Of a stretch of 64,000 bases of DNA, positions 8,801 through 43,944 are shown piece after piece. Made by a program: the position numbers and the translations under genes. A model generated the notes under the pieces. The model saw only the letters and a program-made list of their open reading frames with translations, had not been told where the DNA came from and did not search any database. Numbering within the stretch: position 1 is the stretch's first letter; the number at the start of each line of letters is the position of its first letter. This stretch comes from a virus. The stretch spans positions 64,001 through 128,000 of the IMG/VR virus record IMGVR_UViG_3300005573_000054; one strand, written 5' to 3'.

Positions 8801-9811
8801 ACGGGTCAGATGTTAAATAAATGCGTTTCATGGTTCACTGAAGAGTATCTTGGCTCATATTTTACGCGATCGTCTCTTAATGAGTTTAGTGTTAGTGAAG
8901 ATATTACTAAAAGTGTAGTTACGTACGTAGTTGAGAACTTCTATGAACCGACGAAACATATACCTAATCGTTCGTATATAGTTTATGGAGATACTGACTC
9001 GATATTTATAAAGTCTCCAAAAGTACTCTTAAACGTCTCCGAAGAGACTCTCGAAGATATAACAAGGCAACTTAGAGATAAGTTCTTCGAGTTCACCTCC
9101 TTAGTTGGAAAGATTTTTATCAAAAATCAAAATCCAAGGTTAGTTCTCGAGTTTGAGTATCTTGGTAAGATGTTTCTTATTAATGCAAAAAAGAGGTATG
9201 TTGTTTATAGTACTTATCCCGAAGTGAAGCTCGATATTAAAGGATTTGATTTAAAGAGAAGTGATTATCCATTTTTCTTTAAGGAAAGTTATAAGAAAGT
9301 TCTGGAAATGCTTCTTATCGAAGGAAAATCTATTAAGGAAATACAAGAGTTTATACTTGTTAAAGATGAGGAGTCTCGAAGTCTTCTCAAAAAGTTCGAT
9401 CCGAGCGTCGGGAAACCAGTTACATGGGTCAGGGAATCATATAGATCTATAACTCCAGGTGTGAGAGGTATGATATTGTTTAATAACCTTTTCCAGAGGG
9501 TTTTTCAGGAAGGTTCAAAAGGAGTATTATTTCCTATACGATTACTTCCTCATTATGTTCCTCAGGAAAAACTTCAGTCATATATCAATGAATTATCTTC
9601 ATTGACTTCAGCAACATTAAATATACAGAAAGAGGTAAATGAGGCTAGGTGGTTGACTGTCCCTTGGGATATTGATAAAGAACTACTTGATCAGATACTT
9701 TCGAAGTTGAATGAGTGGTTTTCTATATCTGTGAGTGAATGGGTACAAACAATGTGGATAGATAAGATGAAAGATATAGGATTGTTGGGTAGAAAGGTAG
9801 TTCAGATTTAA
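5876..9811 (+). CDS. Family B DNA polymerase with an N-terminal family-4 uracil-DNA glycosylase domain
   Basis: UDG4 motifs: GEAPGEEE..PFVGPSG, CLCRPPENRTPT..EIECC, HPSF. PolB motifs: VDIE (ExoI), WNSIFDLGYL, FDFSSLYPNII, KVAANALYG, YGDTDS, KKRY. Confidence 0.95.
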   Translation: MNGLLDLKTQDMYLFYEWLSNSRKDLPDHFYKIKSRVFLSWFAFLVNSNQIGFINDLFNHWDLLSVSSRVILECFKDLVSRGIVTLKPKNQIDNFLVCLSYSSDKRVQDVMDIIKELDLDNQEKDRVLRVIKGLNPIELQILKETNYINTLKSELIPSVTKEKQGNSFVKSFLERLNETRLYIESAKTKRSQCQKICTLRPSRQVNFDMGGDEEKIRKGQIDLLFIGEAPGEEEVKQSKPFVGPSGRLLREYINTKLEGFSWVISNSCLCRPPENRTPTRVEIECCNELLFNLIDVVRPRIVVAVGGTAYIALRKFFHNQFPKDLGITKLHGSFEDFATPSGIISKLFVIVHPSFVIRNKPKNIHYFDEGFERLRNHLNSSSSLPTTTSPQSTIKVLYDDSQSSFLFKYPEKYYDVDKYSIVDIQTFEKKILFLWKNIETGTTEFKTIPYQNYYYSISNTAKPVVHSSEVDRNHISNVCLLPSGKWVQSGLGKFSRQETTEYESDVHVTSKCLVDWKLEIERQGKIPRSSPFSYCIVDIEVYVKDGKFPKPEEAFYPVVLCSIYSSLDGSMTVFCWDEFNRELPEQDEVIIELQGKTSEVQYSIRRVGSEEELIRESVKQILKHDVVAAWNSIFDLGYLYTRSNNLNLSPEKLFTKIEGLSPKVDLPKYIFDVPGLVCMDLLTCYKFITPHERESFALGYIAETELGVSKLERGSRFNFVWESDIRYSIKYNVMDVVLCEKINQKLNILEFFNELRFFYCVNWNSVQSSNKALDGLIYYFCKKNGFYVRSKPKKDRRRDLIGGFVHEPVPGLHVVTQFDFSSLYPNIIITGNIDGSLLSMKLKDHDDVLRYIKYVSSDGKEDSEVNVVFFDVDSQTSSERKCLTSQVESYRQEMNGTFLFNGTFFDGRKKSVFSMILEELLSRRKQEKKLLKETKDKQHDLKQRVYKVAANALYGYLGFEGSRFIDPNLVEAVTLTGQMLNKCVSWFTEEYLGSYFTRSSLNEFSVSEDITKSVVTYVVENFYEPTKHIPNRSYIVYGDTDSIFIKSPKVLLNVSEETLEDITRQLRDKFFEFTSLVGKIFIKNQNPRLVLEFEYLGKMFLINAKKRYVVYSTYPEVKLDIKGFDLKRSDYPFFFKESYKKVLEMLLIEGKSIKEIQEFILVKDEESRSLLKKFDPSVGKPVTWVRESYRSITPGVRGMILFNNLFQRVFQEGSKGVLFPIRLLPHYVPQEKLQSYINELSSLTSATLNIQKEVNEARWLTVPWDIDKELLDQILSKLNEWFSISVSEWVQTMWIDKMKDIGLLGRKVVQI

Positions 9812-27825: not shown

Positions 27826-28530
27826 ATGCCTTGGAATGATAATGTTTTTACGAGAGTTTTTGGTGGTACAAAAGAGACGTATGTAGGTGACCCGTTTGTA
27901 CGAGGTTATGGATACTGGTGGATAGATCTACCAGAGAGTCTTAAAGACGTGAGTGCGGCTGATAGTGCGAAACTCGCGGCGCTTGCTCGTGGAGTAACAG
28001 GACTTGCTTCAATCACTCTTGATGTGGAAGATATAGAGGGTCTCGGTGGAGTAAGGTTTGCTATTCCTACAAAGTTGACTATGCCAAGTAGAGTGTCGGT
28101 AACGTATATGGAAGTTCAACAGAACTTTATCTTCAACTTGCATAACAGATGGATCAATATGATTAGAGACCTTAGGTATGGTACAACTGCTCTTATGGGT
28201 CTTGATGGATATACTAAGTCGAAGTACTCGGGAATAGGGTACACCTGGTTGACTCTTCCCGACGGTGAGACGATAGTAGAAGCATACGTCTTGACAGGTC
28301 TTGTACCCACGACTCTTCCTGTATCAGACATGGGATTTGAGCTTGGTACTGTAGGTAAGGTCGATCTGACGATCGAGTACGCATTCGACCATATTTACTT
28401 CTACAGGATTCCCGATGAGAGCGCTTCTGCTACAAGTACTGGAATCTCTAGCGCGTTTGAGAGTAAGTTAAAGGGTCTAATTGGAGAAGTCAAGAAGTAT
28501 TATCAACAGTTTAACAACTCACTGGCTTAA
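27826..28530 (+). CDS. Tail tube protein (gp19-like)
   Basis: Directly follows the sheath gene; size and pattern (W..MI.D..G..Y...G..P) fit tube proteins. Confidence 0.8.
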   Translation: MPWNDNVFTRVFGGTKETYVGDPFVRGYGYWWIDLPESLKDVSAADSAKLAALARGVTGLASITLDVEDIEGLGGVRFAIPTKLTMPSRVSVTYMEVQQNFIFNLHNRWINMIRDLRYGTTALMGLDGYTKSKYSGIGYTWLTLPDGETIVEAYVLTGLVPTTLPVSDMGFELGTVGKVDLTIEYAFDHIYFYRIPDESASATSTGISSAFESKLKGLIGEVKKYYQQFNNSLA

Positions 28531-28544
28531 TAGATAACATATTC

Positions 28545-28576
28545 GACCCTCTACCTTGAGTAGAGGGTCCATCTTT
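28545..28576 (+). terminator. Stem-loop terminating the sheath/tube unit
   Basis: GACCCTCTAC-cttga-GTAGAGGGTC 10-bp stem followed by catcttt. Confidence 0.65.
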
Positions 28577-28595
28577 CCACGTAAAAGTCGATATA

Positions 28596-28601
28596 TATAA
28601 T
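28596..28601 (+). promoter_or_regulatory. -10 box (TATAAT) just upstream of the candidate ncRNA
   Basis: gatataTATAATtatGAGGG; no good -35 element seen. Confidence 0.5.
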
Positions 28602-28604
28602 TAT

Positions 28605-28795
28605 GAGGGTAGACGCCTCGTAGCCCTGTTCCCGAGGGCGTCTATTCCTCTGAAAACGTTGAGGTTCGGGAGTTCAGGGGGCGGTTTTGTGCATCCCACC
28701 GCCATACCGAAAAGGATGCACTGGAGGGCACGCTCTTTGAAAGCCCTGGAGCTCCCGCATGTGCCCTCCACCCTCCTAATTCCCCTCCTTTTTTT
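28605..28795 (+). ncRNA. Candidate structured non-coding RNA with a 5' hairpin and two pseudoknots; family not recognised
   Basis: GC-rich island with five complementary stem pairs, G-U pairs favouring the + strand, and a terminal T7 run. Confidence 0.75.
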
Positions 28796-28936
28796 GTGTA
28801 GCAATATTTTTTTCTTGCTTTGAAACAAATCGAACCAGCGAGAACGAGTGAGAAAGTCTGAGATACACGAGGGTTATTTTTTCTAACGTCTCTTCTGTAC
28901 AAATAGGATTTAACTTTGCATCAAAGGGAGAAACAA

Positions 28937-30391
28937 GTGCAAGAAACTCAACAGGATCAAGCCTCACAGAAAGCAGTATCCCTTCTTCCCTTTCAGGAAC
29001 AAGTCGTAAAAAAATTCTTCACAACTTCCAATGGTAAACTCTTGGTTGGCCTTCCAGTGGGAACTGGAAAAACGATTATCACACTTAAGATAATTGAGCA
29101 CCTTTTCAGAGAAAACCCAGACGCAAGAGTACTAATTATTACTCCGGCGGGTCTACGACTTAACTTCGTGGAGAGTAGGTCTAAAGTCCCAGATGTTCCT
29201 CCAATCGTGATGTGTACCTCTTTTTCTCAACTTAAGAGTGTTATCAATGCTGGAAGTATACCAGTGATCAGTTATAACTTTATCGTTAAGTTAGTGAATA
29301 GTTCTGAATTCGTGGCTCTCGAGTGGGACCTTGTGATCTTCGATGAGCTTCATTTTACGAAGAACTACCAAACTCTTACGTCAAGAGCATGTGTTCTGTT
29401 GGCTTCGAGATCTAAAATGAGGTTAGGTCTCACTGCGAGTTATATAGCCAATAAGTTGGAAGAGTTTGCTACGATGTTGTATATTATAACTTTAGATGAG
29501 TTTGCGAAGACGTTGACAAGTATTGAAAAGATTAGAATCTATTCTTTTTTTATTAAGAAGTACACTTTTATAGTAAAAGAGGAAGAAGTTAATATTCATA
29601 TAAGAAGGCCTTCGCTTCAGTTTACGAGAGTTCCTTGTGTTCTTTCAGAGCAGGAGAATATCGCTTATAAATACGTAGAAGGAAAACTTAATCCTATGAC
29701 TTTACTTAAGATGAAACTTCTACAATTTACTGATTTCAAAAGAGTCCTTAACTGGGTTATAGCCGCTCAACAAGTACTTCTCTTTCCCGCGTATATTATT
29801 AAATCGGAACCTGATTCTCCAAATAAACCAACAGGTATTTTTCCTGAAGTTGGAATAAAGGTAATAGAGTGTGCTCGTCATATTCTTGAAAACGAAGCGG
29901 CTAAACATATGGTCTTTACTCCGTACGTGACATTCGGAGTAAACGTTATTGAGAACTTTTTTTCTCATCATGGAATTCGTTGTCTTAAATATGTAGGTGG
30001 AACGTCTCTTGAAGAACGACAAGAAATAATATCTAAGTTTACAGACCCAGATAGTGGTTATAATGCTATTATTTTATCACTGGCTGGAAAAGAAGGTATA
30101 AATCTTCCAAACACAGATTTTATTCATTGTTTAGGATACCACTGGAACCCTGAAGTGATGGCTCAGGTGTTCGGAAGAGCAAGGAGGATGACTTCTACGA
30201 AACCAGTTGTTGAAGTAAGGCTGTATGAGGCTATAAAACCTCATTCTAAGTTGAAAGCGCTTTTTATGGGGTTTTTTAGTAAGATGAAGTTTTTAGCGTC
30301 TATTATTACTATCGATGGAATGATGTTACAGGCATTGAAGAGGAAGTCGATACTTAAGGCTGTTGTAGTAGAAACGATTCATAAATCATGA
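28937..30391 (+). CDS. SF2 (SNF2-like) helicase/ATPase
   Basis: LPVGTGKT, FDELH, LTAS, GKEGINL, WNP..QVFGRARR. Likely GTG start at 28937 after GGGAG. Confidence 0.88.
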   Translation: MQETQQDQASQKAVSLLPFQEQVVKKFFTTSNGKLLVGLPVGTGKTIITLKIIEHLFRENPDARVLIITPAGLRLNFVESRSKVPDVPPIVMCTSFSQLKSVINAGSIPVISYNFIVKLVNSSEFVALEWDLVIFDELHFTKNYQTLTSRACVLLASRSKMRLGLTASYIANKLEEFATMLYIITLDEFAKTLTSIEKIRIYSFFIKKYTFIVKEEEVNIHIRRPSLQFTRVPCVLSEQENIAYKYVEGKLNPMTLLKMKLLQFTDFKRVLNWVIAAQQVLLFPAYIIKSEPDSPNKPTGIFPEVGIKVIECARHILENEAAKHMVFTPYVTFGVNVIENFFSHHGIRCLKYVGGTSLEERQEIISKFTDPDSGYNAIILSLAGKEGINLPNTDFIHCLGYHWNPEVMAQVFGRARRMTSTKPVVEVRLYEAIKPHSKLKALFMGFFSKMKFLASIITIDGMMLQALKRKSILKAVVVETIHKS

Positions 30392-33400: not shown

Positions 33401-34703
33401 CCCATCACAAAAACTTGAAGTTGTCGGTAATATCAAAGTGAGCTCCTCTGATTTAGGAGTAATACTTAATGCTGATAATAGACCGCTTATTACTCGAGGG
33501 TGGGATCCTTTTAATTCTGGAAAGTATAGTGGAATAGGTAGATGGGGACTGTTTATGGAAGAAACGAAACTCACTATAGGGACACCAGCTATTCCTGGTA
33601 ATGGAATTGTTCAGTTTGCAAGGTATAGAGATGATAGCACAATTGATCAGGTTACGATGACGTTTGACCCATCGGGTAACGTTGGCATCGGGACAACAGT
33701 GCCAGAAACAAAGTTACATGTTCAAGGAAATCTCAAAGTTACGGGACAAACGAACTTTGGAGGAGTGTCTTACGCGTGGCCAACAACTGGAGGAAGTTCA
33801 GGACAGGTTTTAACTACTGATGGAAATGGAAATTTGAGTTGGGCTCCAGTTGGTGGTATGGCGTTTGGATGGGCAACGACATCAGGATCAATATATGGAT
33901 TAGGTTATTTAGCTGGTTGTGGAGATATAAATAATGCTCTTAAATTCGGTGGGTACTCTTTCCCATATGCTTATGGTTACACAGAAAAATGGTCAGGTAG
34001 TAGTTGGGCTACAACATCGGTATTGAAACAAGGGAGAGATTACTTGGCTGGTTGTGGAAATGTATATAATGCTCTTAGCTTTGGTGGGGAGGACGTTAGC
34101 GGGAACCCGACTGGTACTACAGAAAAGTGGTTAGGTGACTCTTGGCAAACAACAACGAGTTTACTTTGGCTAAGAGAAGGTCCGGCGGGTTGTGGAGATG
34201 TGAATAATGCTCTTAGCTTCGGTGGGCTTAGCTTCGGTGGGTATGACGATACAAGTTATCTTAGTACCACAGAAAAATGGTCAGGTAGTAGTTGGGCTAC
34301 AACAACAGCTTTGAATCAAGCAAGAGGTTACTTAGCTGGTTGTGGAAATGTGAATAGTGCTCTTAGCTTTGGTGGGTATGATGATACAAGTTATCTTAGT
34401 ACTACAGAAAAATGGATGGGTAGTAGTTGGACTGTAACATCAGTTTTGAATCAGTCAAGAGCTTATTTAGCTGGTTGTGGAGATATATATAATGCTCTTT
34501 GTTTTGGTGGGTGGAACGGTGGTGCTATTAATACCACCGAAAAATGGATAGGTACTAGTTGGGCAACAACACTAGGATTAACTGTAGGAAGACATGGTTT
34601 AGCCGGTTGTGGAAGTATTAGTGGTGCCCTTAGTTTTGGTGGAGTCACAGGTACAGATGCAGATTATGGACTTGCTACAACAGAAAAATGGTGCAGTGCA
34701 TAA
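30456..34703 (+). CDS. Long tail fibre/adhesin with a C-terminal six-blade kelch-like domain
   Basis: About 8 GNVGIGTT-type repeats, an internal duplication, and 6 GCG..ALSFGG..TEKW repeats. Confidence 0.85.
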   Translation: MIRRIDEHTLVFDSDTVDYIHASKTPVANQLLALDNNAKFPHVALYASYSPGQNTIPIVDTDGILKIPGGVWLATASGNVGVGTTSPAGKLQVSGGNAIFDGNVGIGITSPSEKLHVVGNIGISAGANAFIGTKDNYALSLRTNNADRIFITSGGDVGVGTSAPGYKLDVNGVIRATSYIKAESYLQSYSTTPYVDFYQSGVQEWKIGQLTAGSGTFTIQATGTTDPDKVTILTSGDVGIGTTTPQAKLDVNGKIRASQATQAGEVVTADRTINTGIGLQGGGNLTADRTISLTNTGVVAGTYGDATHVGQFTVDAQGRITSATNVQITGVSPVGSTLTSGRIWVGNSSNQAAEVSVTGHATLSNTGVLTISDGAITDSKVANNAGIAWTKISKSGSNLADLQTRSASDLNSGNLDIARMPLGGNWVLTSSLGITGANVGIGTTTPQAKLDVNGKIRASQATQAGEVVTADRTINTGIGLQGGGNLTADRTISLANTGVVAGTYGDATHVGQFTVDAQGRITSATDVQITGASPVGSALGSGHIWVGNSSNQAAEVAVTGDATLSNTGILTISSGVITDSKVASNAGIAWTKISKSGSNLADLQTRSASDLSSGNLDIARMPLGGNWTISSDLSVLGSVLVVKTTGNVGVGTTSPEALLHVQGNLKVTGQTNFGNVFYTWPSSAGGSNQVLSTNGSGGLSWKSINDLLLYPVSQTPAPNSIVVSESTGKINAGWIPTGPLGWIDRKEYTLSSGNSGYRRLFTFDGSSMANSTEKSIRFCIEWSGQSPERRGMAIVKGSVYKQYDGTFDLLVDVEWEWHKEDDNHLGVYDVVLWKPTNSSEIKLSSWVYAYGGLTVTLSLLEAPSDIVLPSSLVGDNVSSYDLVDSRWLFTDNINTAYAMHLANPIPETGIQRFFATASQTPSGRSIVVSRSDGTIDPGWLPGGGGSLPPGSANQTLRHDGTTWVASSLLVNTGANIGIGTSSPSQKLEVVGNIKVSSSDLGVILNADNRPLITRGWDPFNSGKYSGIGRWGLFMEETKLTIGTPAIPGNGIVQFARYRDDSTIDQVTMTFDPSGNVGIGTTVPETKLHVQGNLKVTGQTNFGGVSYAWPTTGGSSGQVLTTDGNGNLSWAPVGGMAFGWATTSGSIYGLGYLAGCGDINNALKFGGYSFPYAYGYTEKWSGSSWATTSVLKQGRDYLAGCGNVYNALSFGGEDVSGNPTGTTEKWLGDSWQTTTSLLWLREGPAGCGDVNNALSFGGLSFGGYDDTSYLSTTEKWSGSSWATTTALNQARGYLAGCGNVNSALSFGGYDDTSYLSTTEKWMGSSWTVTSVLNQSRAYLAGCGDIYNALCFGGWNGGAINTTEKWIGTSWATTLGLTVGRHGLAGCGSISGALSFGGVTGTDADYGLATTEKWCSA
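31176..32336 (+). repeat. Direct repeat of about 558 bp (31176-31733 and 31779-32336, period 603 bp)
   Basis: Near-identical DNA and protein, from GTTTPQAKLDVNGK to MPLGGNW. Confidence 0.95.
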
Positions 34704-41421: not shown

Positions 41422-43944
41422 ATGACCACGATTAGATTAAAACGAGGAACACGATCTCAGATCTTATCAGAGAGTTTTCTCGAAGGAGAACCTTTGTTCT
41501 CGACTGATACTATGGAGCTGATTCTTCAAGGAGTTTCTTCTAAAGTAATCTTAGCGAGAGCTGATCTAGATAACGTCGAGAATGTGACAATTCTAAATAG
41601 ATTAAAAGAGGTTGATGGATCAGGATCGGGACTTGATGCTGATATAGTAGATGGATTCCATGCTAGTCAAACACCTACAGCAAATCAGATTCCTGTTTTA
41701 AATTCAAATGGAATCTTAAATCTATCAAATGGAGCAAATTTAGCAGTAAGTTCAGGGAAAGTTGGAATTGGAATAAGTTCCCCAAGTCAGAAATTAACAG
41801 TGTCAGGAAAAATTCAGATAGGTGATGACAATGAGTCGCCTACCGCCGGCACCATTCGGTGGACTGGAACAGACTTTGAAGGATATACTGGGAGTGAGTG
41901 GACGTCTTTTACTGCGACAAATTCACAAAAAGAAATCATCAAAGCTTCTGGAGCTACATTATCTACTTCAGAAGTACGTGATACTATAATTAATAATTAT
42001 GGTCAGACCAGCCATATAGTTTATACACTTCCACTAGCTTCTGCTGCAATGAATTTTACTATCGTTATAGGATCCGGTGGAGAAAGTTCAGATCCTTCGC
42101 TGCCGAATGTTGGAAAAGCCCTTAGAATTGAACCGAATTCATCTAATTCTATTTATTTTAATAGTGTCAATGTTGGACGTGGTATTAATATTGGAACACC
42201 ATTAGCTATCAAAGGTTCACAGATAAAGTTTACTTCCTTTAAGACGGATTCTTCAGTCTGGGATTGGTCGGTAGTAACAGAAGGTCCAGGATGGGATACA
42301 TGTGTGAGTGTATGGTCTATAACGTCAAATTTAAACCAAGCAAAAGGTCAGTTAACTGGTTGTGGAGATATAAATACTGCTCTTTGTATTGGTGGGGCCC
42401 CAGCTGGTGGTGTTGTTGTTGGGACTACAGAAAGGTGGTCGGGTAGTAGTTGGGTTATAACATCATCGTTGAATCAAGCGAGATGTAGTCTAGCTAGTTG
42501 TGGAAATGTAAATAGAGCTCTTGGCTTTGGTGGTTGGGATGGTATAAATCTTTTTAACAGCACAGAGAGATGGTCAGGTAGTAGTTGGGCTACAACATCA
42601 GCTTTGAATCAAGCAAGACGTGAACTTGCCGGTTGTGGAGATATAAACGACGCTCTTAGTTTTGGTGGGTGGAACGGTACAAGTTATCTTAGTACCACAG
42701 AAAAATGGTCAGGTAGTAGTTGGGCTACAACAACAGCTTTGAATCAGGCGAGAAGCAATCTAGCTGGTTGCGGAAATGTGAATAATGCTCTTAGTTTTGG
42801 TGGGTGGAACGGTATTGCTGTTAATACCACCGAAAAATGGTCAGGTAGCAGTTGGGCTGTAACATCGGTATTGAATCAAGCGAGAAGTTACTTGGCTGGT
42901 TGTGGAGATGTAAACACTGCTCTTAGCTTTGGTGGAGGCACAGGTAACTACGTCGGTACTACAGAAAAATGGTCAGGTAGTAGTTGGGTCGTAACATCGG
43001 TATTGAATCAAGGGAGAGATGCTTTAGGTGGTTGTGGGAACGTGAACACCGCTCTTAGCTTTGGTGGAAGCACAGGTAATTACGTTAGTGCTACAGAAAA
43101 ATGGTCACCTTTCACTCCTAATTTTGTTTCCGGTTGGAGAACAGCTAGTGGAATGAATCAAGCAAGAGGTTACTTGGCTGGTTGTGGAGATGTAAATAAT
43201 GCTCTTAGCTTTGGTGGAAGCACAGGTAGTACTGTTAATACTACCGAAAAATGGTCGGGTAGTAGTTGGATCACAACAACAGCTTTAAGCGTTGCAAGAG
43301 CTGACATAGCTGGTTGTGGAAATGTGAATAATGCTCTTAGCTTCGGTGGGTATGACGATACAAGTTATCTTAGTACCACAGAAAAATGGTCAGGTAGTAG
43401 TTGGGCTACAACAACAGCTTTGAATCAAGCAAGAGGTTACTTAGCTGGTTGTGGAAATGTGAATAGTGCTCTTAGCTTTGGTGGGTATGATGATACAAGT
43501 TATCTTAGTACTACAGAAAAATGGATGGGTAGTAGTTGGGCTACAACATCATCGTTGAATCAAGCAAGAGGTTACTTAGCTGGTTGTGGAAATGTGAATA
43601 GTGCTCTTAGCTTCGGTGGGTGGTCAGATAGTGGTGCTGTTGGCATCACAGAAAGATGGATGGGTAGTACTTGGGCTACAGCATCATTATTAAATCAAGC
43701 AAGAAGTGATCTAGGTGGTTGTGGAGATGTAAATAATGCTCTTAGCTTTGGTGGGAGTGATGGTATAGATTTTTATTATAATATCACGGAGAAGTGGTCA
43801 GGTAGTAGTTGGGCTACAACGTCAGTATTAAATCAAGAAAGAAGTGATCTAGGTGGTTGTGGAGATGTAAATAATGCTCTTAGCTTTGGTGGAAACGTTG
43901 ATTTTAATTATCTTGGTGTTACAGAAAAATGGTTTGGAATATAA
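41422..43944 (+). CDS. Adhesin/fibre paralog of 38748..41279 with 12 kelch-like repeats
   Basis: Colinear, highly similar N-terminal ~295 aa, followed by 6+6 repeats. Confidence 0.8.
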   Translation: MTTIRLKRGTRSQILSESFLEGEPLFSTDTMELILQGVSSKVILARADLDNVENVTILNRLKEVDGSGSGLDADIVDGFHASQTPTANQIPVLNSNGILNLSNGANLAVSSGKVGIGISSPSQKLTVSGKIQIGDDNESPTAGTIRWTGTDFEGYTGSEWTSFTATNSQKEIIKASGATLSTSEVRDTIINNYGQTSHIVYTLPLASAAMNFTIVIGSGGESSDPSLPNVGKALRIEPNSSNSIYFNSVNVGRGINIGTPLAIKGSQIKFTSFKTDSSVWDWSVVTEGPGWDTCVSVWSITSNLNQAKGQLTGCGDINTALCIGGAPAGGVVVGTTERWSGSSWVITSSLNQARCSLASCGNVNRALGFGGWDGINLFNSTERWSGSSWATTSALNQARRELAGCGDINDALSFGGWNGTSYLSTTEKWSGSSWATTTALNQARSNLAGCGNVNNALSFGGWNGIAVNTTEKWSGSSWAVTSVLNQARSYLAGCGDVNTALSFGGGTGNYVGTTEKWSGSSWVVTSVLNQGRDALGGCGNVNTALSFGGSTGNYVSATEKWSPFTPNFVSGWRTASGMNQARGYLAGCGDVNNALSFGGSTGSTVNTTEKWSGSSWITTTALSVARADIAGCGNVNNALSFGGYDDTSYLSTTEKWSGSSWATTTALNQARGYLAGCGNVNSALSFGGYDDTSYLSTTEKWMGSSWATTSSLNQARGYLAGCGNVNSALSFGGWSDSGAVGITERWMGSTWATASLLNQARSDLGGCGDVNNALSFGGSDGIDFYYNITEKWSGSSWATTSVLNQERSDLGGCGDVNNALSFGGNVDFNYLGVTEKWFGI

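What the first reader, a model, noticed from the sequence alone, without database searches (positions are those of the whole stretch)
28596..28795. Unrecognised ~190-nt structured RNA with two pseudoknots between the tail tube and helicase genes
Seen: a GC-rich island in an AT-rich genome, insulated upstream by a terminator hairpin (28545-28569), preceded by TATAAT (28596) and ending in a T7 run. Pairings read directly: (a) 5' hairpin 28605-28620 with 28633-28650; (b) CGGGAGTTCAGGG 28667-28679 with CCCTGGAGCTCCCG 28744-28757, one bulge and one G-U; (c) GGCGGT 28680-28685 with ACCGCC 28698-28703; (d) loop GTGCATCC 28689-28696 with GGATGCAC 28714-28721, an H-type pseudoknot with c; (e) TGGAGGGCAC 28722-28731 with GTGCCCTCCA 28761-28770, crossing b to form a second pseudoknot. 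Stems b/c and d/e abut, suggesting coaxial stacking, and the G-U pairs favour the + strand. I cannot match it to tRNA, tmRNA or a ribozyme or riboswitch consensus I know. Inference: an independently transcribed phage RNA with a compact tertiary fold (ribozyme, protein or ribosome decoy, anti-defence sponge or virion RNA), possibly working with the adjacent SF2 helicase.
Basis: partly seen in the sequence, partly recalled or inferred. Interest (0 to 1): 0.9.

Follow-up and report, generated by a model that had tools for sequence, protein, structure and literature searches.

The report
Orphan structured RNA in hot-spring jumbo phage
A single-copy, unusually GC-rich stretch of about 190 bases in a hot-spring jumbo phage almost certainly folds into a very stable RNA made from an early-type phage promoter, but its exact fold and its job cannot be settled because no relative carries it.

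Summary
The stretch is the most GC-rich 150-nt window of the whole 159-kb record (60% against 37.7%), it is non-coding, and it folds far better than shuffles at both 37 and 75 C.

New context:
- The phage comes from Obsidian Pool, Yellowstone, and encodes two multisubunit RNA polymerases.
- The TATAAT is part of a 12-mer, GATATATATAAT. It occurs 4 times on the + strand against 0.065 expected, and resembles the AR9 early (virion-polymerase) promoter. That places the RNA start at G28608, at the foot of hairpin a.

There is no Rfam, tRNA or tmRNA match. The element is single-copy. It is absent downstream of the tube gene in the closest relatives (55-57% tube identity) and from every collection scanned, so covariation cannot be tested.

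The double pseudoknot is not established:
- A nested Y-shaped fold has the same energy. Its closing stem b' (28661-81 with 28772-90) abuts the U7 run like a terminator.
- Complementarity exceeds what one nested fold can use, which suggests pseudoknots or a b/b' switch.

My best reading is an early structured RNA at the head of the helicase unit, ending conditionally at U7. Interest is moderate.

The parts
28545..28569 (+). Hairpin after the tube gene stop (GACCCTCTAC / GTAGAGGGTC). It has a weak U tract and may act as an end or insulator for the upstream late operon.
   Evidence: inverted repeat I4, 10 bp perfect. Not scored as a terminator.
28590..28601 (+). Promoter-like 12-mer GATATATATAAT, which contains the TATAAT. 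I take it as an early (virion-RNAP type) promoter.
   Evidence: Four exact copies on the + strand against 0.065 expected, and none on the - strand. Intergenic copies lie at genome 37677, 92590 and 157492, with one-mismatch copies at 9226 and 157400. It resembles the AR9 early consensus AAATATATATTAT-(6N)-G (PMC5312081).
28608..28608 (+). Predicted transcription start, G, 6 nt after the motif.
   Evidence: Inference by analogy with AR9, phiKZ and phiR1-37 (PMC5312081). No RNA data were available.
28605..28650 (+). Hairpin a, a 5'-terminal stem-loop of about -23 kcal/mol.
   Evidence: Pairing probability is about 1.
28667..28679 (+). Seg1, the 5' strand of helix b. The same bases are the 5' strand of the alternative closing stem b'.
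28680..28703 (+). Hairpin c (GGCGGU / ACCGCC, 6 bp). Its 12-nt loop holds the 5' strand of d.
   Evidence: A bracket helix of this kind arises in 6 of 1000 shuffles.
28689..28721 (+). Helix d (GUGCAUCC / GGAUGCAC, 8 bp). With c it gives textbook H-type loop lengths: L1 3 nt, L2 1 nt, and an A-rich L3 of 10 nt.
   Evidence: I8; probability about 1.
28722..28770 (+). Helix e (UGGAGGGCAC / GUGCCCUCCA, 10 bp plus one G-U).
   Evidence: (I5).
28744..28757 (+). Seg7, the 3' strand of helix b. It contains the palindrome GGAGCUCC.
   Evidence: I3.
28771..28788 (+). C-rich tail CCCUCCUAAUUCCCCUCC. It is the 3' strand of b' (28772-84 with 28668-81, and 28787-90 with 28661-64). It also carries anti-Shine-Dalgarno-like CCUCC motifs.
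28789..28795 (+). U7 run. It is terminator-like only if b' forms.
   Evidence: There are 24 T7-or-longer runs on the + strand in 159 kb.
28796..28936 (+). AT-rich, unstructured spacer. The inverted repeat 28808-29 / 28915-36 overlaps the helicase ribosome-binding site.
   Evidence: z = +0.64; inverted repeat I1. Both SNPs seen among the sampled contigs fall at or near it, at 28904 and 28937.
28937..30391 (+). SF2/SNF2-type helicase gene. The start codon is GTG, and ATG in one contig.

Best explanation
The element is a single-copy, thermostable, + strand structured RNA of about 188 nt (G28608 to the U7 run at 28789-95). It is transcribed from an early-type promoter (GATATATATAAT) of a thermophilic jumbo myovirus that carries two multisubunit RNA polymerases. 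It forms the 5' part of the transcription unit that contains the SNF2-type helicase.

Hairpin a sits at the 5' end and probably protects the transcript. The core (28661-28790) can adopt two states. In one, Seg1 (28667-79) pairs with Seg7 (helix b, stacked on c) and the C-rich tail stays free. In the other, Seg1 pairs with the tail (b'), closing a Y-shaped junction of d and e directly before U7, which is an intrinsic-terminator shape.

I propose conditional termination. The terminated product would be a stable small RNA of about 188 nt. Read-through would give the helicase mRNA.

Shown: the structure signal, the promoter motif class, single copy, and the absence of any known family. Inferred: the start, the end, the switch and any function.
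For: - Composition and folding statistics.
- The 12-mer occurs 4 times against 0.065 expected, on the + strand only. At two other loci it drives protein genes with 5' hairpins, and at a third a hairpin+T7 mini-unit.
- Two sets of RNAP beta and beta' genes are present. Jumbo-phage early promoters are AT-rich motifs of about 10 nt near -10, and the AR9 consensus is AAATATATATTAT-(6N)-G (PMC7598289, PMC5312081).
- The sigma-70-type consensus scan, the only one run, finds no other promoter-like site between the element and the helicase start.
- Stem b' ends right at U7, and b and b' use the same bases 28668-79.
- The sequence has more complementarity than one nested fold can use.
- The phage is found in Obsidian Pool, where GC-rich islands in AT-rich genomes are a classical sign of structural RNA. 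That link is my own knowledge (Klein, Misulovin and Eddy, PNAS 2002).
Against:
- There is no homolog, so there is no covariation.
- A segment with two good partners is common in shuffles of this composition: 39 of 200. The b/b' switch is therefore not statistically supported.
- A terminator stem enclosing about 90 nt is atypical.
- The termination rules of jumbo-phage RNAPs are unknown, and strictly canonical hairpin+T sites are rare in this genome.
- The 140-nt gap between U7 and the ribosome-binding site is long for an attenuator.
- The helicase could have an unrecognised phage promoter of its own.
Confidence: 0.35

Rival explanations
1. The element is a free-standing, trans-acting early small RNA with the first reader's doubly pseudoknotted fold. 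Two antiparallel stacks, b+c (19 bp) and d+e (18-19 bp), leave the 3' tail with its CCUCC motifs single-stranded. The tail could then pair with Shine-Dalgarno regions or mimic the 16S rRNA 3' end, or the compact body could bind a protein.
For: - All four helices can form in the order of synthesis without displacing anything (sequence order).
- c with d has textbook H-type loop lengths, and a c-like helix is rare by chance (6 of 1000).
- The two stacks have equal length, which is what closure by the 3-nt linker requires. This is geometric inference.
- Three CCUCC motifs lie within 24 nt, against one per 1.6 kb genome-wide. GGAGG precedes 56 of 138 ORFs, and the tail complements several phage ribosome-binding sites.
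- C-rich seeds that target Shine-Dalgarno regions are typical of Bacillota small RNAs such as RoxS/RsaE (my own knowledge).
Against: - With the tail unpaired there is no terminator stem before U7, so a discrete 3' end is unexplained.
- The fold-back of c on d has no precedent I know of, and L1 (3 nt) would be fully stretched.
- The nested alternative has the same energy.
- A C-rich 3' strand followed by a U run is simply what a terminator looks like. The terminator at genome 38.1 kb is also GGGAGGGG/CCCCTCCC.
- The tail would also bind the phage's own ribosome-binding sites.
Confidence: 0.25
2. The element is a passive structural module with no specific tertiary fold or ligand. It would be a very stable 5' stabiliser and insulator between the late tail operon and the next unit, GC-rich only because any RNA structure must be GC-rich to survive at about 75 C.
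For: - The other units behind the same 12-mer also begin with a hairpin.
- The element keeps about -26 kcal/mol at 75 C, whereas the spacer has no structure.
- The closest relatives carry only an ordinary terminator hairpin at this position.
Against: - Hairpin a alone would be enough for 5' protection.
- 130 further nucleotides with interlocking complementarity, forming the single highest GC peak of 159 kb, is more than other leaders in this genome have.
Confidence: 0.2
3. The element acts as DNA: an origin, a packaging site or a protein-binding array. Alternatively it is a decayed foreign or mobile GC-rich insert without function.
For: - Both strands fold equally well.
- The ends carry imperfect inverted repeats, 28599-613 and 28767-81 (I2).
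- The element is absent in relatives.
- The palindrome GGAGCTCC is present.
Against: - Interleaved inverted repeats with spacers of 17-63 nt make no sense as protein sites or cruciforms.
- G-U positions would become C-A mismatches on the other strand.
- It is single-copy in the genome by BLAST and by covariance model. A 20-mer scan of 185,579 species genomes gave only two chance hits, which argues against a mobile repeat.
- A far better origin candidate, an iteron field, lies at genome 54.6-56.4 kb.
- None of the three ORFs across it has a Pfam match.
Confidence: 0.12

Closest known systems
Early transcription units of RNAP-encoding jumbo phages (AR9, phiKZ; PMC5312081, PMC7598289)
   Same: A highly conserved AT-rich motif of 10-13 nt lies near -10 (AAATATATATTAT in AR9, GATATATATAAT here). 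The phage has two multisubunit RNAP gene sets. The motif is over-represented upstream of operons on the coding strand.
   Different: Only about 5 intergenic copies occur in the 159 kb held, against 41 in AR9. The start site has not been mapped. In the passages I read, those papers describe antisense RNAs and tRNA genes but no structured non-coding early RNA of this kind. The phage proteins are very distant: helicase identity is at most 31% to anything and tube identity at most 57%.
Lambda pR'-tR' leader ('6S' transcript, 194 nt) and riboswitch or attenuator leaders (own knowledge)
   Same: A short transcript of similar size runs from a promoter to a terminator just upstream of an operon. Read-through would give the mRNA. 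The two pairings of one segment (b and b') are mutually exclusive.
   Different: No antiterminator protein, ligand or conserved aptamer is known here. The terminator stem would enclose a 90-nt insert. The switch is not statistically supported.
C-rich-seed small RNAs of Bacillota (RoxS/RsaE, RNAIII hairpins; own knowledge)
   Same: C-rich motifs complementary to Shine-Dalgarno sequences lie next to a U-rich 3' end. The host is probably a Bacillota, judging from the bacterial homologs of the helicase.
   Different: No Rfam hit to RsaE or any other small RNA. The motifs sit in a 3' tail that may be paired, not in hairpin loops. The body is much larger.
Nested double-pseudoknot RNAs with two parallel helical stacks (HDV-like ribozymes, glmS; own knowledge)
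   Same: Crossing helices could pack as two side-by-side coaxial stacks joined by very short linkers.
   Different: The strand order differs: it is b5', c5', d5', c3', d3', e5', b3', e3'. There is no match to the Rfam models. No cleavage site or catalytic core can be recognised.
Stable small RNAs of unknown function in large phages (T4 species RNAs C and D; own knowledge)
   Same: They are phage-encoded, structured, abundant-type small RNAs without a known role.
   Different: The T4 RNAs lie in the tRNA cluster and are processed from a precursor. This record has no tRNA genes.

Membership tests
Any Rfam 15 family (riboswitches, ribozymes, small RNAs, 6S, SRP, RNase P, T-box, EAR and others) | A covariance-model score at or above the family's gathering threshold | tested here: not met
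   No hits at gathering threshold in the window or in the rest of the genome. No hits at E<=10 on 601 nt. On 203 nt only three chance hits to animal miRNA and lncRNA models appeared, at 9-15 bits against gathering scores of 55-85.
tRNA / tmRNA | Cloverleaf or tRNA-like domain with a tag reading frame, as recognised by ARAGORN | tested here: not met
   No genes in the window or in the whole 159-kb record.
Jumbo-phage early (virion-RNAP) promoter unit | A highly conserved AT-rich motif of about 10 nt, over-represented upstream of operons on the coding strand | tested here: met
   Four exact copies on the + strand against 0.065 expected, none on the - strand. The criterion is quoted from PMC7598289 and the AR9 consensus from PMC5312081.
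Jumbo-phage early (virion-RNAP) promoter unit | The phage encodes virion and non-virion multisubunit RNAPs | tested here: met
   There are two Rpb2_6 (beta-like) loci and two Rpb1_2 (beta'-like) loci. Which set is packaged in the virion was not tested.
Jumbo-phage early (virion-RNAP) promoter unit | Transcript 5' end 6 nt downstream of the motif, present early and independent of protein synthesis | not testable with these tools
No RNA data were available.
Intrinsic terminator / attenuator leader | A GC-rich stem immediately followed by a U tract | tested here: inconclusive
   The simple consensus scan finds no compact hairpin. The long-range stem b' (28661-81 with 28772-90) does abut U7 and dominates the nested ensemble.
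Intrinsic terminator / attenuator leader | A mutually exclusive antiterminator pairing beyond chance | tested here: inconclusive
   b and b' share 28668-79. A second partner of equal strength occurs in 39 of 200 shuffles.
H-type pseudoknot (c with d) | Two stems with a loop-to-downstream pairing and sterically allowed loop lengths | tested here: met
   S1 is 6 bp, L1 3 nt, S2 8 bp, L2 1 nt and L3 10 nt. A bracket helix of 6 bp or more arises in 6 of 1000 shuffles. Whether it actually forms is unproven.
Conserved structured RNA family (any new family) | Homologs with compensatory base changes | tested here: not met
   Five other contigs of the same phage are identical across the element. No homolog was found in phage GenBank records, IMG/VR patterns, JGI metagenomes, species genomes or relatives' records by BLAST and covariance model. 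The position downstream of the tube gene is filled differently in relatives.

The most novel reading that the evidence does not exclude
This would be a new class of thermostable early phage RNA. Its body is a closed double pseudoknot made of two antiparallel 19-bp stacks. Its exposed 3' tail carries repeated anti-Shine-Dalgarno (CCUCC) motifs. Made by the injected virion RNA polymerase, it would act in host takeover, for example by sequestering Shine-Dalgarno regions, mimicking the 16S rRNA 3' end, or soaking up a host protein or defence sensor.
Probability: 0.1. Interest if true: 0.8.

Novelty: new variant of a known kind. Interest (0 to 1): 0.5.

Why it matters
Structured non-coding RNAs are almost undescribed in jumbo phages that carry their own RNA polymerases, and thermophilic ones are barely sampled. 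If this RNA is made early and has a defined fold, it would be a compact, heat-stable RNA of unknown family with a clean promoter. That would make it useful as a structural-biology target and as an entry point to early host takeover, or to gene control by non-canonical phage RNA polymerases. If it is only a heat-proof leader and terminator module, it still shows how thermophilic phages build mRNA 5' ends. As it stands it is a well-defined experimental candidate, not a discovery.

Tried and rejected
Searches that gave no identification:
- Rfam at gathering and E-value thresholds gave no real hit.
- ARAGORN found nothing.
- blastn against 50,697 phage records found nothing.
- Two IMG/VR pattern scans and a JGI metagenome pattern scan found nothing.
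- A 20-mer scan of species genomes gave two Stenotrophomonas hits with no flanking similarity, so they are chance.

Protein-guided search for relatives:
- The helicase has at most 31% identity to anything.
- The tube protein has one 55% and one 57% relative on short Logan contigs, with different neighbours and AT-rich intergenic DNA.
- Three IMG/VR relatives at 31-37% identity lack the element by GC profile, BLAST and covariance model R1.
- No close relatives were found through the DNA polymerase or helicase in IMG/VR, or through the tube protein in JGI metagenomes.
- Other contigs of the same phage carry no variation in the element.

Other attempts:
- Coding readings were rejected. The + strand 54-aa ORF and the - strand 75- and 86-aa ORFs all have TTG starts and no Pfam match.
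- A mobile-repeat (MITE) reading was rejected because the element is single-copy.
- Strand choice by folding energy was uninformative.
- Earlier notes of this scan held no look-alikes in other genomes.

Full report
**What is there.**
The window is bases 64001-128000 of a 159,483-bp IMG/VR record, rated about 50% complete. The finding lies in a 406-nt gap. Upstream is a tail-tube-like gene (27826-28530), preceded by an 893-aa sheath gene. Downstream is an SF2/SNF2 helicase.

- TATAAT lies at 28596-601 and the T7 run at 28789-95.
- Helices c, d and e are perfect.
- Helix b has one bulge and one G-U pair.
- Helix a is an imperfect long hairpin.

The stretch is 57.6% GC in a 37.5% GC window. It is the most GC-rich 150-nt window of the entire record and it is non-coding. 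The ORFs that cross it have TTG starts and no family match.

**Is it more than chance?**
Yes.
- MFE z-scores are about -4 at 37 C and about -3.4 at 75 C.
- The total length of non-overlapping helices of 6 bp or more is 34 bp, against 17 +/- 6 in shuffles; 2 of 1000 reach it.
- With d and e fixed, the remaining bases still carry 27 bp of helices against 8.3 +/- 5.5 (0 of 1000). A helix bracketing the 5' strand of d, as c does, arises in 6 of 1000 (post hoc, mononucleotide shuffle).
- The 165 nt downstream of the T7 run are unstructured, with z = +0.64.

**Context found here.**
The same phage occurs in Obsidian Pool, Yellowstone (run SRR6049666, identified in PMC10762115). It also occurs in an IMG data set credited to J. 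G. Elkins. The helicase's bacterial homologs are Bacillota, several from genera I know as thermophiles. In AT-rich thermophiles, GC-rich islands are a classical sign of structural RNA (own knowledge: Klein, Misulovin and Eddy, 2002).

The genome carries two beta-like and two beta'-like RNAP loci. It is therefore an RNAP-encoding jumbo phage of the AR9/phiKZ type.

- It occurs four times on the + strand against 0.065 expected, and never on the - strand.
- Three exact and two one-mismatch copies are intergenic.
- At genome 37677 it precedes a hairpin, a 99-aa ORF and a canonical terminator.
- At 157492 it precedes a gene. At 157400 it precedes only a hairpin plus T7. At 9226 it precedes two tandem 19-aa hydrophobic ORFs.

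Jumbo-phage early promoters are exactly such AT-rich motifs near -10 (PMC7598289). The AR9 consensus is AAATATATATTAT-(6N)-G, with the start 6 nt downstream (PMC5312081). By analogy the RNA starts at G28608, at the foot of hairpin a. This is inference.

**The fold.**
The pseudoknotted set a+b+c+d+e sums to about -81.2 kcal/mol before any pseudoknot penalty. The best nested fold is -80.4 kcal/mol.

The nested fold keeps a, d and e. It replaces b and c by b', in which 28668-81 pairs with 28772-84 and 28661-64 pairs with 28787-90. This stem ends exactly at the U7 run. It dominates the nested ensemble.

So Seg1 (28667-79) has two equally good partners. That looks like a terminator/antiterminator pair. 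However, a second partner of that strength occurs in 39 of 200 shuffles of this G-run and C-run composition.

Geometry is inference from A-form dimensions.
- If c stacks on d as in a classical H-type knot, and b stacks on c and e on d, the result is a rod of about 37 bp. Its ends would have to be joined by the 3-nt linker 28758-60, which is impossible.
- The five helices can coexist only if stack b+c (19 bp) and stack d+e (18-19 bp) lie antiparallel side by side. The equal lengths make closure possible, but L1 (UUU) would be fully stretched.

Order of synthesis favours the pseudoknotted set, because each 3' strand finds a free partner. Only b' gives the U7 run a terminator stem. The data cannot decide between them.

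**Comparative evidence.**
There is none, despite a broad search.
- Five other contigs of the same phage are identical across the element. The only two SNPs in 4.7 kb are at 28904 and at 28937, where GTG becomes ATG; this supports 28937 as the helicase start.
- The closest tube relatives (55% and 57% identity) have other neighbours and AT-rich intergenic DNA with an ordinary terminator.
- More distant relatives lack it by GC profile, BLAST and a covariance model.
- Pattern scans of IMG/VR, JGI metagenomes and 185,579 species genomes gave nothing beyond two chance 20-mer hits.
- Rfam gives nothing, and ARAGORN gives nothing.
- The RNA-seq route was closed.

**Reading.**
The element is very likely (about 0.8) a functional + strand RNA structure. 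My best single explanation, at 0.35, is an early-promoter transcript heading the helicase unit.
- Hairpin a acts as a 5' protector.
- The core either closes into the b' Y-fold and ends at U7, giving a stable RNA of about 188 nt, or holds b and c and lets the polymerase run on to the helicase.

The rivals are:
- a free-standing doubly pseudoknotted small RNA with an exposed anti-Shine-Dalgarno tail (0.25). CCUCC occurs three times within 24 nt, GGAGG precedes 56 of 138 ORFs, and the tail complements several phage ribosome-binding sites;
- a passive heat-proof stabiliser and insulator (0.2);
- a DNA-level or decayed foreign element (0.12).

No functional link to the helicase is shown beyond adjacency.

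**Verdict.**
This is an orphan candidate RNA of no known family, in a known general kind: a phage small RNA or leader. Interest is moderate (0.5). The candidate is clean and well delimited with a likely early promoter, but it rests on a single sequence, with no covariation, no expression data and no demonstrated fold.

Noticed in passing
genome 54605-56373 (L006:15005-16773; about 9.4-7.6 kb before the window start): A 1.8-kb non-coding field is packed with short direct repeats (units such as GCTGCTGCTATATAA, CGTCTATATAATGCGAGCTA). It looks like iterons and is a better replication-origin candidate than the finding.
   Followed up: no
genome 9226-9470 (L004:9226-9470): A one-mismatch promoter motif, GATATATATGAT, is followed by two tandem paralogous 19-aa hydrophobic ORFs (MWPGLAILGLTVLILWAKS and MWPGAVILGLTILILWIKS). 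Each has a strong AAGGAGGTG ribosome-binding site and a long hairpin. They could be small membrane peptides or a type I toxin-like pair.
   Followed up: partly
genome 53953-54235 (L006:14353-14635): This structured intergenic region (z = -4.8 on the + strand) holds two copies of a unit. The unit is an ACCUCCUUU(C/G)AUG motif, like the 16S rRNA 3' end, followed by a 13-bp hairpin GAGUGGU(A/G)G...C(U/C)ACCACUC and a U run. These may be further small RNAs that carry anti-Shine-Dalgarno motifs.
   Followed up: partly
genome 157400-157446 and 157492 (L009:9800-9846 and 9892): Tandem promoter motifs occur here. The first (GATATATATACT) is followed only by a hairpin plus T7, giving a predicted transcript of about 30 nt. 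The second lies 92 nt downstream and leads into a gene.
   Followed up: no
window 28904 and 28937: These are the only two SNPs among four other contigs of this phage over 4.7 kb. One is T>C in the spacer. The other changes the helicase start codon from GTG to ATG, which supports 28937 as the true start.
   Followed up: yes
window 28808-28829 with 28915-28936, and 28811-18 with 28939-46: Inverted repeats pair the U-rich stretch just after the element with the helicase ribosome-binding site and start codon. They may mask translation, although the region as a whole is not significantly structured.
   Followed up: partly
genome 30097-30498, 34983-36236, 142026-142493, 147356-148480: There are two separate sets of multisubunit RNAP beta- and beta'-like genes, so this thermophilic phage belongs with the jumbo phages that encode a virion and a non-virion RNAP.
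   Followed up: partly
window 33924-34493 and 42367-43875: Near-copies of the promoter 12-mer lie inside repeated coding units (GGTTGTGGAGATATAAATAATGCTCTT, encoding G-C-G-D-I-N-N-A-L) of the Kelch-like fibre genes. They are a by-product of the coding repeat and are probably not promoters.
   Followed up: no
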